Source: Actinomycetota bacterium
GTDB taxonomy: Bacteria > Actinomycetota > Humimicrobiia > Humimicrobiales > Humimicrobiaceae
Assembly (NCBI GenBank): GCA_028717265.1
Contig: JAQUOE010000003.1
Location: 825-64,824 of the forward strand
Direction of reading: 5' to 3'
Length of the DNA stretch: 64,000 bases
The notes under the pieces were generated by a model, which was given only the letters and a program-made list of their open reading frames with translations, was not told the origin of the DNA and ran no database searches. Within the stretch, counting starts at the first letter, position 1. Each line of letters begins with the position of its first letter. Below, in pieces: positions 44,940 to 49,189 of this stretch. The position numbers were made by a program, and so were the translations under genes.

Positions 44940-46049
44940 CTAGGAGACTCTGATGGGCATAAGTAAATAAATCAAGTCTTTGTTTTTTTCAGATTTTATC
45001 AAAATAGGTTTAAGGGGTTCCTCTATCGATAATATTATATTCTTCTCGTCCATAATATTTAAACCGTCGATTAAAAACTCGGGATTAAAGGCTATCTCCA
45101 TTCTTTCTTCTCCATATGAAACATCAAAATCCTCGCTGGAGCTTCCAATTTCTCTTATATTCATAAATACCGTTATTTTACCTTTATCAATAGTGATCTT
45201 TACGGGTATGTTGTCCTGCGAGATTGATGAAATTCTCTTTACCACCTCAAGCATTTTGTCTTTATCTATTATTATGTCGTGCTTCATTTTCTGAGGAATA
45301 AGCTGTTTGTATTCCGGGAATTTTCCGGAAAGTAATCTTGACACCATAATGATCTTTTTTTTACTGGCGCTTTCCATGTAAAAACTTGCCTGGTTTTCTT
45401 CGATGCTTATCTCTATATCTCCGTCCCTAAATTCACTTTTAACAATATTGTCGAGAACTTTTGAGGGAACGACAACTTTTATCGGTTGTTTCCCGCCGCC
45501 TATTTTTTCTTTAACCAGAGCCAGCCTGTAGCTATCAGTTGCTACCATGCTCAACACGTCATCCCCTATCTCCAGAAGCACTCCGGTCAGGATTGCCCTT
45601 CCTTCGTCCAGGGATGCTGCTTTTTCTGCTTTTGACACAATATCCTTAAATTTATTCAGGTTTATTTTCAAATAATTTTCTTTCTTTGTTTCTGGGAAAA
45701 CCGGGTATTCTTCCAGAGATAATGTATTTAATGTAAAAAATGCGTTTTCGCAACTAATTTTTACCTGGTTCTTTGTCTTGTCCAGTTCCAGCTCTATTTT
45801 TGATTCTTTCAGGCTTTTTAATATATTTGCCAGAATCCTTGCGGGCACCACCGCTTTCCCTCTTTCAAGAACCTTTACTTCCATTGTGCATTTTATGCTT
45901 GTCTCAAGATCGGTACTGTATACAGTCAGGCCCTCTCCGGCATCAAGCATGATCCCGTTCAGTATGAACGATGAGGCTTTTGGACTTATTGCTCTGCTGG
46001 CAAATAAAATAGTTTCCAGAAGGTCGGTCTTTGTAGTTTGAAATTTCAT
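44940..46049 (-). CDS. dnaN: DNA polymerase III beta sliding clamp
   Basis: STDLE, ILTGVLL, VATDSYRLA, GKFPEY, IAFNPEFLIDGL, YLLMPIR. Confidence 0.97.
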   Translation of the reverse strand: MKFQTTKTDLLETILFASRAISPKASSFILNGIMLDAGEGLTVYSTDLETSIKCTMEVKVLERGKAVVPARILANILKSLKESKIELELDKTKNQVKISCENAFFTLNTLSLEEYPVFPETKKENYLKINLNKFKDIVSKAEKAASLDEGRAILTGVLLEIGDDVLSMVATDSYRLALVKEKIGGGKQPIKVVVPSKVLDNIVKSEFRDGDIEISIEENQASFYMESASKKKIIMVSRLLSGKFPEYKQLIPQKMKHDIIIDKDKMLEVVKRISSISQDNIPVKITIDKGKITVFMNIREIGSSSEDFDVSYGEERMEIAFNPEFLIDGLNIMDEKNIILSIEEPLKPILIKSEKNKDLIYLLMPIRVS

Positions 46050-46349
46050 TATAGCCCTCTAATTTCTTTAAATATTTGAAATATAAACATATTTTATTAT
46101 ATATAGTGTTTAATTTAAATAGTCAGTAATAGTTATAATATATGTTGAGAATGTTAAGATGGTAAAAAAAGACAGTGAATTACAGCCGGTTCCATAAAGA
46201 CACCTGTTAACAATACAGCTTAAAGCTGTTTAAAGTAATAAAAAAAATATATAAGAAAATTAAAACGTTTAGTTTTAAACAAGGGAAACAGTTAATTGTT
46301 AAAAACTTTATCTATTATTCAACAGGTTCTAAACACAGGCATTCAGATT
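46050..46349. other. Predicted oriC unwinding region (dnaA-dnaN intergenic): variant DnaA boxes, DnaA-trio-like repeats, AT-rich DUE
   Basis: Minus strand ATCTTAACA TTCTCAACA (46160-46143), then ACTATTACTGACTATT (46133-46118), then AT-rich tract. Further TT(T/C/G)TNAACA at 46205, 46273, 46297, 46327. Confidence 0.75.
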
Positions 46350-47711
46350 TTACGCAGACGTCTTTATCCTGTTGGTAATTTCCTGAATCTGTACATAGAC
46401 AGTTTTATCGGTATTTATAAGATTTGAGATTCTTGAAACGGCGTATATTACAGTTGAATGATCGCGGTTCCCGAAAGATTTTCCGATTCTGGGCAAAGAA
46501 CTGCTTGTAAGCTCTCTGGATAAATACATTGCGAGCTGACGTGCATGTGATATGAATTTATTTCTCTTGGCACTTATAATATCATTGATGGGTATTGAGA
46601 AATATCTTGATACTTCTTTAATTATTGTTTGAATACTTATCTTGTGATCCGTATCATCGGGCAAAATATCTTTTAATATGTTTTTAGCCATGTTTAAATC
46701 CGGTTTGGAGTTAGTAAGGGAAGCAAATGCGACTATTCTTGTAAGAGAACCCTCCAGCTCCCTGATGTTAGAAGTAATTTTTTCGGCAATTAAATTTAGT
46801 ATGTCATCAGAGGTAGAGATTTTTTCTCTTTCGGAATATTTTTTTAAAATTGCCAGTCTTGTTTCCAGATCCGGCGGCTTGATATCAGTCACCAGACCCC
46901 ACTCAAACCTTGACCGGAGTCTTTCTTCAAGAGTGGAAATGTTTTTTGGTGCCCTGTCGCTTGAGAGGACTATCTGCCGGTTGGTATCATGAAGGGCGTT
47001 AAATGTATGAAAAAATTCTTCCTGGCTGGCTTCCTTATCCTCGAGAAAATGTATATCATCGACGAGCAAAACATCATTGTTTCTATAGTTTTCTTTAAAC
47101 GAAAATATATTTTTATAACGGAGAGCATTTATAAAATCATTAAGAAATCTTTCAGCCGAAACATATTTTATGGTTTTATTGGGATGCAGCTGCATTGTGT
47201 ATTGAGCTATTGCATGCAGAAGGTGCGTCTTTCCCAATCCCACTCCCCCATAAATAAACAATGGATTATAGGCTTTGCCCGGATTCTCGCTGACCGCAAG
47301 AGAGGCAGTACAGGCAAACCTGTTGCTGCTCCCAACGATAAATGTATCAAAAGTGTACTTTGAATTAAAAAGAGAATTTTTGTTTTGTTTAAAGGGATAC
47401 TTTTCCTCTTTTAAAGTTTCGTCAATGTATTTGTCATATTTACCGTTAGTATTTTTGGAACTTCCGGGAACAGTAACGATTTTTATTTTACATGAATTGT
47501 TTGTCGCTTTTTTAATTGATTCCGATAGAAGATTTGAGTATCTGGACTCAAGCCACTCTTTAGCGAAATTACTGCCGACTGAAATAGTTAAACAGTTTTT
47601 TTTTAACGAAAGTGGGGTTATGTGTTCGAACCAGGCTTTATATGTAGGGAGATTGATATTGTTTTTAATATCTTCGAGAGTATTTTTCCAGATGTTTTGT
47701 AGGTCCGACAT
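46350..47711 (-). CDS. dnaA: Chromosomal replication initiator DnaA
   Basis: YTFDTFIVGSSN, YNPLFIYGGVGLGKTHL, LLVDDI, RLRSRFEWGL, NIRELEG, domain IV RDHSTVIYA. Confidence 0.98.
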   Translation of the reverse strand: MSDLQNIWKNTLEDIKNNINLPTYKAWFEHITPLSLKKNCLTISVGSNFAKEWLESRYSNLLSESIKKATNNSCKIKIVTVPGSSKNTNGKYDKYIDETLKEEKYPFKQNKNSLFNSKYTFDTFIVGSSNRFACTASLAVSENPGKAYNPLFIYGGVGLGKTHLLHAIAQYTMQLHPNKTIKYVSAERFLNDFINALRYKNIFSFKENYRNNDVLLVDDIHFLEDKEASQEEFFHTFNALHDTNRQIVLSSDRAPKNISTLEERLRSRFEWGLVTDIKPPDLETRLAILKKYSEREKISTSDDILNLIAEKITSNIRELEGSLTRIVAFASLTNSKPDLNMAKNILKDILPDDTDHKISIQTIIKEVSRYFSIPINDIISAKRNKFISHARQLAMYLSRELTSSSLPRIGKSFGNRDHSTVIYAVSRISNLINTDKTVYVQIQEITNRIKTSA

Positions 47712-47723
47712 AATACTCTAATA

Positions 47724-48590
47724 TTAAATATTATTTGAATAATATTCAAGGTATTTTAATCCTTTTTTAGATAATTTTCTCTTACCGTTACTGCTTGAGG
47801 CAAGCAGTTTGTTCTTTTCCAGGTAGATTAATTCCCGGTATGAAGTAGAAAGACTGAAGCCCAGTTCGCTGGCTATCGTAGAAGGCCCGGCTTCCTCAAG
47901 CTCAAGGATCACAAAAAGGATTTTCTTTTGTCTGTCAGATAATAATTTACGGTCAAATTTATCAATGCCATCCGCCGGGTTTTTTTTATCCTCATCGAGG
48001 ACAACAGGTATCGATTCACCGGTTGTCTTGATTTCCGTATCTTTTACACCATCACTCTTTTCCGGCTGCCCAAGTTTTAAAGATATTACTGTCCCTTTTC
48101 TTATATTATCCTTTACATCGATAGACCCCCCCGAAAAAGTTATTGTTTCCTTTACTATGGGAAAACCTGAACCTACCCCCCTGATATATTCTTTCATTTT
48201 ACTCGTAGCAGAAGTATATCCCGGTAGAAAAGCTTTTTCTTTGTCTTCGATTCCCGGCCCCTGGTCCGTTATGATGATATGGTCTCCCCTTCCCAGTACG
48301 GTAATAACAACTTCTTTGAAATCTGCGTGTATAAGATTCTCTATTATCTCTTTTATTATTGTGTAGGGAATCCTTCCTCCTATCTCATGGGACAGACTGT
48401 AAGTTTTTTGTGTGGTTTCATTAATGAAGTCGGCAATATTATCATAGCTGAGATTCACTATCCTTGGAATACTGCGCATGTTGTCATAGACTGCGATCCT
48501 GACTGGTATTTTTTCAATGTTTCCATAGATTTTTTCGGAATCGGCAGCAATATTTGGTTTAGTATTTTCGTCAGGCATTATTAATTTCAA
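47724..48590 (-). CDS. Uncharacterised GHKL (HATPase_c) ATPase fused to a C-terminal winged HTH
   Basis: N box EIIENLIHA, G1 DQGPGI, G2 GVGSGF, G3 KGT; C-terminal LSDRQKKIL...GPSTIASELGFSLSTSYRELIYLE...GKR; no His phosphoacceptor helix seen. Confidence 0.8.
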   Translation of the reverse strand: MKLIMPDENTKPNIAADSEKIYGNIEKIPVRIAVYDNMRSIPRIVNLSYDNIADFINETTQKTYSLSHEIGGRIPYTIIKEIIENLIHADFKEVVITVLGRGDHIIITDQGPGIEDKEKAFLPGYTSATSKMKEYIRGVGSGFPIVKETITFSGGSIDVKDNIRKGTVISLKLGQPEKSDGVKDTEIKTTGESIPVVLDEDKKNPADGIDKFDRKLLSDRQKKILFVILELEEAGPSTIASELGFSLSTSYRELIYLEKNKLLASSSNGKRKLSKKGLKYLEYYSNNI

Positions 48591-48671
48591 CTTTAACGTG
48601 AATTGTCCTATTTAACAGAAAACATATCAATAAGCGATATTACTTTTCATTTTCTTTTCAGAAGCTTAAGG

Positions 48672-48812
48672 TTTTCAACAGATTAATAATAATATTTTAA
48701 CAAGGAAAAAGCTACTAGATTGTACGATAAGTCCTTCGGATTAAAATCATATGACATATGATTTAGTGAAGTTTTTTAAGTTTTCAACAATTTTTTCAAC
48801 AGGTGTTGAAAA
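48672..48812. promoter_or_regulatory. Cluster of four perfect TTTTCAACA 9-mers (putative variant DnaA boxes) between the GHKL gene and rpmH
   Basis: Plus strand at 48672, 48781 and 48793; inverted (TGTTGAAAA) at 48804. Confidence 0.65.
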
Positions 48813-49054
48813 GTTATTTAAATTTTTGAAATGCTATGAGAAATTACACCATAATATATATAAAATAAATATCATTTTCAAAAGAGGTCTTTCACCAGAA
48901 CAGATGTTTGAGTAAATAACATGCTTCAAAAAAAAGATAAAAATAAAAATGCTTAAAGGAACACTTATTTAAATGTGGGAATCTTGATATTAGAAAGATT
49001 AAAATGTATAATCTACTACTTGACTGAAAACAATAATATATAGATTGGGTAAAA

Positions 49055-49189
49055 ATGAAAAGGACATTTCAGCCTAACGCAAGGAAAAGAAAAAAGGTTC
49101 ACGGTTTCAGAGTAAGAATGGAAACCAAAGCCGGCAGGGCCATAATTTCGTGCAGAAGAAAAAAAGGAAGAAAAAAGCTTTCTGCTTAA
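49055..49189 (+). CDS. rpmH: 50S ribosomal protein bL34
   Basis: Below the ORF cutoff; [44 protein letters not shown]. Confidence 0.97.

What the first reader, a model, noticed from the sequence alone, without database searches (positions are those of the whole stretch)
46118..46335. oriC apparently built from non-canonical DnaA boxes (TT[T/C]TNAACA; C6 changed to A) with DnaA-trio-like repeats
Seen: no TTATCCACA/TTWTNCACA was found by eye in either origin-flanking intergenic region. The dnaA-dnaN gap instead has TTCTCAACA, ATCTTAACA, TTGTTAACA, TTTTAAACA, TTTTTAACA and TTCTAAACA. On the minus strand two abutting boxes (46160-46143) are followed by ACTATTACTGACTATT and an AT tract. Established: this mirrors the B. 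subtilis unwinding site (tandem boxes, then CTACTATTACTTCTACTA trios, then an AT cluster), although the GC-rich spacer is absent here. Inference: this lineage's DnaA reads a shifted box.
Basis: partly seen in the sequence, partly recalled or inferred. Interest (0 to 1): 0.75.

Follow-up and report, generated by a model that had tools for sequence, protein, structure and literature searches.

The report
Replication origin with variant DnaA boxes
The gap between dnaA and dnaN is the DNA-opening half of this uncultured bacterium's chromosome replication origin; it has the standard layout, but every initiator-binding site carries A where the textbook site has C, a variant already reported in a few other bacteria.

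Summary
All six listed 9-mers are present, and I found two more. Neither gap beside dnaA holds a TTATCCACA match, even with one mismatch allowed. TTNTNAACA is about 35-fold enriched here over other intergenic DNA of the same genome. The two densest clusters in the 1.59-Mb assembly are this gap and a second one at 48672-48812 (4 exact TTTTCAACA). The contig's G-C skew minimum lies about 100 bp away.

Comparison of 14 related genomes conserves only the motif T-T-T-T-N-A-A-C-A, a trio run and an AT tract. Position 5 varies freely, as in the textbook box. Two abutting boxes, DnaA-trios and an AT tract form the known Bacillus-type unwinding module, which recurs across the class.

Relatives with identical DNA-contact residues carry TTTTCCACA at the same box positions, so position 6 looks relaxed (A or C), not switched. 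The two changed contact residues (E. coli T435 to S, H439 to Y) are neither sufficient nor necessary in other lineages. Within the family, however, residue 435 tracks position 6.

A at position 6 is already published for mollicutes and Thermoanaerobacter. This is an ordinary origin with a known box variant and a useful natural allelic series.

The parts
44940..46049 (-). dnaN (DNA polymerase III beta clamp, 369 aa)
   Evidence: Pfam DNA_pol3_beta N-terminal, central and C-terminal domains
46080..46119 (.). AT tract, the likely DNA-unwinding element (93% A+T)
   Evidence: Composition. Mean pairwise column identity is 0.93 across 14 genomes against 0.52 for the rest of the gap.
46124..46141 (+). 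DnaA-trio run. The + strand reads CAG TAA TAG TTA TAA TAT; from the box side this is 3'-TAT AAT ATT GAT AAT GAC-5'. It lies 1 nt from the proximal box.
   Evidence: Five of six triplets have the central A. Relatives read TAG TAA TAG. The block 46118-46142 has column identity 0.87. It meets the published (NAN)x3 rule with a spacer of at most 16 bp (PMC8287927).
46143..46151 (-). DnaA box TTCTCAACA, the proximal box of the abutting pair
   Evidence: AACA is invariant in 14 genomes
46152..46160 (-). DnaA box ATCTTAACA, the distal box of the abutting pair
   Evidence: AACA invariant
46205..46213 (-). DnaA box TTGTTAACA
46227..46235 (-).
   Evidence: positions 2-4 and 6-9 invariant
46273..46281 (+). 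DnaA box TTTTAAACA
46297..46305 (-). DnaA box TTTTTAACA
46316..46324 (+).
46327..46335 (+). DnaA box TTCTAAACA
46350..47711 (-). dnaA (453 aa), the only DnaA domain IV in the assembly. Base-contact residues are R383, P407, D417, H418, S419 (E. coli T435) and Y423 (E. coli H439).
   Evidence: Pfam and PDB alignments; numbering; a single Bac_DnaA_C match in the genome
47724..48590 (-). HATPase_c (GHKL) gene lying between the upstream box cluster and dnaA
   Evidence: Pfam. A gene-sized gap in the same position is conserved in the class.
48672..48680 (+). DnaA box TTTTCAACA, overlapping a possible -35 of the GHKL-dnaA operon promoter
   Evidence: 12 of 13 genomes identical; promoter-like match on the minus strand at 48678-48649
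48781..48812 (.). Three-box cluster: TTTTCAACA(+) 48781-48789, TTTTCAACA(+) 48793-48801 and TTTTCAACA(-) 48804-48812
   Evidence: Exact copies. It is orthologous across the whole class with fixed 3-nt and 2-nt spacers. Position 6 alternates A/C/T with DnaA residue 435.
48894..48913 (.). Conserved convergent pair ACCAGAACA(+) and ACTCAAACA(-): either weak boxes or another factor's site
   Evidence: AGAACAnnTGTTTGA is invariant in 13 genomes
48984..49012 (+). rpmH promoter (TTGATA, 17 nt, TATAAT); rpmH is 49055-49189
   Evidence: 11 of 12 consensus match, conserved

Best explanation
The dnaA-dnaN gap (46050-46349) is the unwinding half of a two-part chromosomal origin.

Eight DnaA boxes with consensus TTTTNAACA bind DnaA domain IV. 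The last two boxes abut each other (46160-46143, minus strand) and point a DnaA-ATP filament onto the adjacent DnaA-trios (46124-46141). The filament then opens the AT tract (46080-46119) next to dnaN. This is the Bacillus-type basal unwinding system.

A second cluster of four exact TTTTCAACA boxes (48672-48812) lies upstream of the GHKL-dnaA operon. It probably serves as the high-affinity or autoregulatory half.

The boxes are ordinary DnaA boxes whose position 6 is A instead of C. The most likely reason is that this lineage's DnaA no longer discriminates C from A at position 6. The likely cause is S in place of E. coli T435 on a class-wide H439Y background. In a 37% G+C genome the boxes have then drifted to all-A.

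Shown here: the location, the motif, its constraint profile, the module layout and the co-variation. Inferred: DnaA binding, unwinding and the relaxed specificity.
For: - **Location.** dnaA, dnaN, rpmH, rnpA, yidC, jag and mnmE surround the site. The G-C skew minimum is at 45956.
- **Enrichment.** TTNTNAACA occurs 5 times against 0.14 expected, and 4 times against 0.21 expected, relative to other intergenic DNA of the same genome. These two gaps are the top clusters in the whole assembly.
- **Footprint.** Over 14 boxes in 13-14 genomes the motif is T.77 T.86 T.76 T.78 N A.95 A.99 C.99 A.94. Position 5 is as free as background (column identity 0.48 against 0.52). This is the constraint profile of TTWTNCACA with one letter changed.
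- **Box identity.** Orthologous boxes alternate between TTTTCAACA and TTTTCCACA or TTATCCACA within the genus and family.
- **Module layout.** Two abutting boxes, a short spacer, CTA/TTA trios and an AT tract next to dnaN recur in every genus of the class. They also recur in phylum-level relatives L137, L141 and L142. The layout meets the published rules for the unwinding module.
- **AT pressure alone is not enough.** Clostridium loci at 26-31% G+C keep C6 boxes.
- **Co-variation with residue 435.** T/A435 lineages always keep a central TTTTCCACA in the three-box cluster (21 of 21 loci). S435 lineages move it or lose it: 9 of 22 loci are all-A, from at least four independent losses, including the independent S435 origin L125. 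The P435 clade uses T6, with 47% T against 5% elsewhere.
Against: - No binding or unwinding data exist for this DnaA.
- S435 plus Y439 occurs with CCACA boxes in a high-G+C actinobacterium (L139) and in a Syntrophaceae MAG (L064). Y439 alone occurs with TTGTCCACA boxes in Nocardioidaceae.
- A6-dominant dnaA-dnaN gaps occur with unchanged T435/H439 in Ca. Arthromitus and another Firmicutes MAG.
- L128 has S435 but keeps the ancestral A-C-A cluster.
- The 435 correlations rest on few independent events: one P clade and three S origins.
- I could not read the E. coli co-crystal paper, so which base residue 435 or 439 touches is not established here.
Confidence: 0.55

Rival explanations
1. The origin and layout are the same, but DnaA keeps the canonical preference for C at position 6. 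The A6 boxes would be low-affinity sites filled cooperatively by DnaA-ATP, as with the weak sites of E. coli oriC. The all-A state would then be AT-biased drift that is tolerated, not a change in the protein.
For: - A6 boxes, including the boxes next to the trios, also occur in relatives with an unchanged helix 5 (L137, L141, L142, Ca. Arthromitus, L069, Tissierellales).
- Most class members keep one canonical TTTTCCACA 'anchor' box in the upstream cluster.
- The S435/Y439 pair coexists with CCACA boxes elsewhere.
- The published search program for unwinding modules already allows 2-4 mismatches in these boxes.
Against: - The window's subclade has no C6 box in either gap, and no canonical cluster anywhere in a 95%-complete assembly.
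- A at position 6 is invariant in eight boxes across 14 genomes. Purely weak sites should tolerate, or gain from, a change of A to C.
- The last C6 box was lost at least four times, and only on S435 backgrounds.
- AT-rich Clostridium keeps C6.
Confidence: 0.27
2. A true switch: this DnaA now prefers A over C at position 6.
For: In the window, 14 of 14 boxes are A6. The central box of the upstream cluster changed from C6 to A6 at about the point where T435 became S, and it stays A6 in 19 of 22 S435 genomes.
Against: Relatives with identical base-contact residues carry C6 at orthologous boxes. Most of the S435 clade reads C-A-A, and L179/L180 read C-C-C. No residue is shared by all A6-dominant lineages and absent from C6 lineages.
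Confidence: 0.13
3. The AACA repeats are sites for another protein rather than DnaA, for example the HATPase_c protein encoded between the upstream cluster and dnaA.
For: A gene-sized gap in the same position as the GHKL gene is conserved in the class. The pair AGAACAnnTGTTTGA at 48896-48912 fits the DnaA-box profile poorly at positions 1-4.
Against: The constraint profile equals that of the DnaA box. Orthologous sites alternate with canonical TTTTCCACA and TTATCCACA. The same box-trio-AT module occurs in L137, where dnaA is preceded directly by an intergenic region.
Confidence: 0.03

Closest known systems
Bacillus subtilis oriC incC basal unwinding system (DnaA boxes 6/7, DnaA-trios, AT-rich 27-mer; PMC6669920, PMC8287927)
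   Same: It lies in the dnaA-dnaN gap. It has two abutting same-orientation boxes, then 3'-GAT/AAT-5' trios, then an AT tract next to dnaN. A second box cluster lies upstream of dnaA, making a two-part origin.
   Different: The boxes have A at position 6. This genus has no GC-rich spacer, although more distant family members do. An extra GHKL gene separates the upstream cluster from dnaA.
Mollicute DnaA-box consensus TT(A/T)TC(C/A)ACA (as quoted in PMC3322544)
   Same: Position 6 may be A or C, and TTTTCAACA and TTATCAACA are named explicitly. These are low-G+C genomes with boxes flanking dnaA.
   Different: The phylum differs (Firmicutes-derived rather than Actinomycetota). Here position 5 is free and A6 is about 95%, not an alternative to C.
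Thermoanaerobacter tengcongensis oriC, box consensus TTATCNACA, with DnaA binding shown in vitro (PMC1888806)
   Same: Position 6 is degenerate in a low-G+C anaerobe, and binding is cooperative to neighbouring boxes.
   Different: That origin lies upstream of dnaA. Position 3 is A rather than T. Binding was tested experimentally, which has not been done here.
Epsilonproteobacterial DnaA and boxes (T fixed at position 5; helix-5 residues 435, 438 and 439 vary; PMC5043019)
   Same: There is a lineage-specific box variant together with substitutions at E. coli positions 435 (S) and 439 (K or Y).
   Different: A different box position is affected, and altered contacts were shown by DMS footprinting there.
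Actinobacterial oriC (Streptomyces and Mycobacterium type, TTGTCCACA boxes in the dnaA-dnaN gap)
   Same: Same phylum and the same dnaA-dnaN location.
   Different: High-G+C relatives use CCACA boxes. This low-G+C class uses AACA boxes.

Membership tests
DnaA box (TTWTNCACA family) | 9-bp motif with T-rich positions 1-4, free position 5 and strict positions 6-9 | tested here: met
   The footprint matrix is TTTT-N-AACA, and position 5 varies as freely as background. Position 6 is A, not C.
DnaA box (TTWTNCACA family) | Match to TTATCCACA with at most one mismatch (usual stringent criterion) | tested here: not met
   There is no such match in either gap. The best boxes have 2 mismatches.
DnaA box (TTWTNCACA family) | Clustered in both orientations beside dnaA at the skew switch | tested here: met
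DnaA box (TTWTNCACA family) | Bound by DnaA domain IV | not testable with these tools
   Indirect evidence only: orthologous sites alternate with canonical TTTTCCACA, and position 6 co-varies with DnaA residue 435.
Basal unwinding system (BUS) of oriC | A DnaA box with at most 2 mismatches, optionally with a second box of at most 4 mismatches | tested here: met
   TTCTCAACA has 2 mismatches and ATCTTAACA has 4.
Basal unwinding system (BUS) of oriC | At least three NAN trios within 16 bp of the box, with 3'-GAT-5' the commonest | tested here: met
   The run reads 3'-TAT AAT ATT GAT AAT GAC-5' and starts 1 nt from the box. Relatives read GAT AAT GAT.
Basal unwinding system (BUS) of oriC | AT-rich region beyond the trios | tested here: met
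   46080-46119 is 93% A+T and conserved.
Basal unwinding system (BUS) of oriC | GC-rich spacer between box and trios | tested here: not met
   The spacer and first trios here are A/T only. Family members L124, L126 and L130, and the other-class relative L137, have ccccc, accc or gcgc. The published search rules do not require this spacer.
Basal unwinding system (BUS) of oriC | DnaA- and ATP-dependent strand separation | not testable with these tools
   This needs a strand-separation or P1/KMnO4 assay.
Two-part (bipartite) oriC of the B. subtilis or H. pylori type | Two box clusters separated by dnaA | tested here: met
   The clusters are at 46143-46335 and 48672-48812, and both are conserved. 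Here dnaA plus one extra gene lie between them.

The most novel reading that the evidence does not exclude
In this low-G+C actinobacterial class, the helix-5 residue at E. coli position 435 sets which base DnaA accepts at box position 6. It acts on a class-wide H439Y background. T or A at 435 keeps a C6 anchor box. S at 435 makes A and C equivalent and allows all-A origins such as this one. P at 435 swaps C for T (TTTTATACA boxes). The family would then be a natural allelic series giving a one-residue, one-base recognition rule for DnaA. The rule could be tested with four point mutants.
Probability: 0.3. Interest if true: 0.6.

Novelty: new member of a known kind. Interest (0 to 1): 0.37.

Why it matters
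Origin finders that look for TTATCCACA with at most one mismatch would find no box at this origin, and probably none across a whole uncultured class of 87 species. The consensus TTTTNAACA, with position 6 A or C (A or T in one subclade), can be used to annotate them.

The family also offers a compact comparative data set of 65 genomes and one orthologous three-box cluster. In it, a base-contacting DnaA residue and one box position change together. That makes the long-standing question of how DnaA specificity evolves directly testable with a few mutants.

The origin architecture and the A6 variant are not new in themselves.

Tried and rejected
- **H439Y as the cause of A6.** Rejected as sufficient: Nocardioidaceae/Propionibacteriales, L064 and L139 have Y439 with CCACA boxes. 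Rejected as necessary: Ca. Arthromitus, L069 and Tissierellales are A6-dominant with H439.
- **A shared determinant in domain IV.** I looked for any column shared by all A6-dominant lineages and absent from C6 lineages. There is none.
- **AT pressure alone.** Rejected, because Clostridium at 26-31% G+C keeps C6.
- **Chance.** Rejected.
- **A structured single strand in the gap.** None was found (DNA fold z-score 0.31).
- **Other TTNTNMACA clusters in the genome.** These are C3 1919-2230, C52, C23 and C6. They lie mostly inside coding sequence, hold 3-4 hits each and look like chance.
- **Promoter scan.** Only weak matches in the dnaA-dnaN gap, so a dnaN promoter overlapping the trio block cannot be excluded.
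- **Literature.** Fujikawa 2003, the E. coli domain IV-DNA structure, is not held. The base contacted by residues 435 and 439 therefore could not be taken from the source. A search for TTTTCAACA alone returned only unrelated primer hits.
- **Organism name.** An exact look-up of the window's DnaA found no record, and the named genome scan omitted this lineage. The phylum was inferred from 72-79% DNA identity of same-phylum relatives to named Actinomycetota.

Full report
**Setting**

The window comes from a 1.59-Mb, 66-contig, 36.9% G+C assembly. Around the finding the genes run as follows: dnaN (44940-46049, minus), a 300-bp gap (46050-46349), dnaA (46350-47711, minus), a HATPase_c gene (47724-48590, minus), and a 464-bp gap (48591-49054). 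Then, on the plus strand, come rpmH, rnpA, yidD, yidC, jag and mnmE. The cumulative G-C curve of the 71-kb contig has its minimum at window position 45956, about 100 bp from the finding. The assembly holds only one DnaA domain IV.

Same-phylum relatives have dnaA regions 72-79% identical in DNA to named Actinomycetota. The organism is therefore a low-G+C, small-genome member of that phylum. Its class has 87 species representatives.

**Observation**

Neither gap contains TTATCCACA with up to one mismatch, or TTWTNCACA.

The test comes out clearly:
- TTNTNAACA occurs 0.46 times per kb in the other 148 kb of intergenic DNA (72% A+T).
- It occurs 5 times in this 300-bp gap (0.14 expected, p 4e-7).
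- It occurs 4 times in the upstream gap (0.21 expected).
- Control patterns with T, G or C at position 6, or with other letters at position 8, are not enriched.

A blind 9-mer scan returns TTTTCAACA as the top word. Four of the genome's 34 copies lie within 140 bp at 48672-48812 (p 4e-10). Genome-wide, the two densest TTNTNAACA clusters are these two gaps. No 400-bp stretch anywhere holds more than two canonical boxes.

**What is under selection**

I aligned the gap from 14 genomes of the genus and its nearest genera, whose DnaA is 80-95% identical to the window's. Most of the gap is free to vary (mean pairwise column identity 0.52). The conserved parts are:
- the AACA cores (0.96);
- box positions 1-4 (0.81);
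- the AT tract 46078-46117 (0.93);
- the trio block 46118-46142 (0.87).

Box position 5 varies like background (0.48).

Pooling 14 boxes from both gaps gives T.77 T.86 T.76 T.78 N A.95 A.99 C.99 A.94. This is the constraint profile of the textbook TT(A/T)TNCACA box with one letter changed. It is the main reason to call these DnaA boxes and not some other repeat.

**The unwinding module**

On the minus strand the order is:
- ATCTTAACA then TTCTCAACA (abutting, same orientation);
- one spacer nucleotide;
- ATA TTA TAA CTA TTA CTG, which is 3'-TAT AAT ATT GAT AAT GAC-5' on the other strand; close relatives read GAT AAT GAT;
- a 93% A+T tract running up to dnaN.

The published operational definition of the basal unwinding system is met. 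It asks for a box with at most 2 mismatches, a second box with at most 4, a spacer of at most 16 bp, and at least three NAN trios (PMC8287927).

The same layout recurs next to dnaN in every genus of the class. It also recurs in phylum-level relatives of other classes (L137, L141, L142). Several of these have a short GC-rich spacer that this genus lacks. Even in relatives with an unchanged helix 5, the boxes next to the trios are partly of the A6 type, for example TTATTCACA TTATCAACA in L137.

**The upstream cluster**

The upstream gap holds one TTTTCAACA at 48672-48680. It overlaps a possible -35 of the GHKL-dnaA operon promoter. The gap also holds a three-box cluster at 48781-48812, whose spacing (3 nt and 2 nt) is conserved across the whole class. 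This looks like the upstream half of a two-part origin, a dnaA autoregulatory site, or both.

Within the genus, orthologous boxes read either TTTTCAACA or TTTTCCACA.

**The protein**

Six E. coli residues make base-specific contacts: R399, P423, D433, H434, T435 and H439 (named in PMC2533591 and PMC7561715, citing Fujikawa 2003). The window's DnaA keeps four and changes two. T435 becomes S419 and H439 becomes Y423.

Y439 is shared by all 65 class members sampled and arose once. It is not a sufficient cause of A6 boxes:
- Nocardioidaceae and Propionibacteriales (Y439) have CCACA boxes.
- A Syntrophaceae MAG (S435, Y439) has CCACA boxes.
- The high-G+C actinobacterium L139 (S435, Y439) has CCACA boxes.

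It is not necessary either. Ca. Arthromitus, another Firmicutes MAG and Tissierellales have A6-dominant dnaA-dnaN gaps with H439. AT-richness alone does not do it, because Clostridium loci at 26-31% G+C keep TTATCCACA. No domain IV column separates all A6-dominant lineages from C6 lineages.

**Co-variation inside the family**

Adding 38 more family loci gives the position-6 readings of the orthologous three-box cluster below.

| DnaA residue at E. coli 435 | Loci | Position 6 of the three boxes |
|---|---|---|
| T or A | 21, from about ten genera | Almost always A-C-A; the central box is TTTTCCACA or TTATCCACA in 21 of 21 |
| S, main clade (includes the window) | 20 | C-A-A, C-A-C, C-C-C or A-A-A |
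| S, independent origin L125 | 1 | A-A-A |
| S, independent origin L128 | 1 | A-C-A |
| P (one clade of 8, 100/100 support) | 7 | T-T-A, T-A-A, T-A-G, A-T-T or A-T-G |

The all-A state occurs in 9 of the 22 S435 loci, through at least four independent losses. It never occurs on a T435 or A435 background (Fisher p 0.0014, not corrected for phylogeny).

In the P435 clade, 47% of TTNTNNACA hits have T at position 6, against 4-5% elsewhere, and C is almost absent.

Because relatives with the same RDHSTVIY helix carry C6 boxes at orthologous sites, the simplest reading is relaxation. S435 DnaA would treat A and C alike, and a low-G+C genome would then drift to all-A. These correlations rest on few independent substitutions and are inference, not proof.

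**Comparison with what is known**

The architecture is the B. subtilis-type two-part oriC with a basal unwinding system (PMC6669920, PMC8287927). A at box position 6 has been published before:
- The mollicute consensus is TT(A/T)TC(C/A)ACA, with TTTTCAACA and TTATCAACA named (PMC3322544).
- Thermoanaerobacter tengcongensis has TTATCNACA, with binding shown in vitro (PMC1888806).

Lineage-specific box variants linked to changes at helix-5 positions 435, 438 and 439 were discussed for Epsilonproteobacteria (PMC5043019). Earlier notes of this scan also report A6-type origins in other genomes. My own controls agree with them.

**Verdict**

- The identification of the site as the origin unwinding site is well supported.
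- The claim of a shifted DnaA specificity is partly supported and is better stated as relaxed recognition at position 6.
- This is a new member of a known kind: an origin built wholly from a previously reported box variant.
- Its most useful by-product is a natural residue-435 series that could be tested at the bench.

Noticed in passing
window 47724-48590: A 288-aa HATPase_c (GHKL) gene sits between the upstream box cluster and dnaA. It ends 12 bp before dnaA. A gene-sized interval in the same place is seen in the class and in some phylum-level relatives (L141, L142), but not in L137. Another first-reader note covers it.
   Followed up: partly
window 48896-48912: The near-palindrome AGAACAnnTGTTTGA is invariant in 13 genomes. 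It fits the DnaA box only at positions 5-9, so it may be another factor's site.
   Followed up: no
window 48649-48722: Three further invariant blocks of unknown role: CTTTTCATTTTCTTT(T/C)CA; GATTAATAATAATATTTTA, directly after the 48672 box, which is a second NAN-type triplet run; and AAAAAGCTACTAGATT. They may be promoter elements of the GHKL-dnaA operon or a second trio-like element.
   Followed up: no
L129 and L146-L152 (G023, G057-G059, G063-G065, G067): A clade of eight family members has proline at E. coli DnaA position 435. Its origin boxes read TTATATACA, TTTTATACA or TTTTCTACA (T at position 6), both in the three-box cluster and in the distal box next to the trios.
   Followed up: partly
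G013:C22:1501-2529, G069:C9:1618-2952, G008:C145:7636-8355: Three relatives' assemblies carry a second, divergent DnaA-like hit, 37-47% identical to the window's DnaA. These could be paralogues, mobile-element initiators or bin contamination.
   Followed up: no
G058:C11:17444-18811: The dnaA of one family member has an in-frame TAA. This could be a sequencing error or a pseudogene.
   Followed up: no
L045 (Ca. Arthromitus MAG), L069 (uncultured Firmicutes): The gaps flanking dnaA are built largely or wholly from TTATCAACA, TTTTCAACA and TTATTAACA boxes despite a canonical RDHTTV(I/L)H helix 5. The A6 variant is therefore more widespread than the literature I could read suggests.
   Followed up: partly
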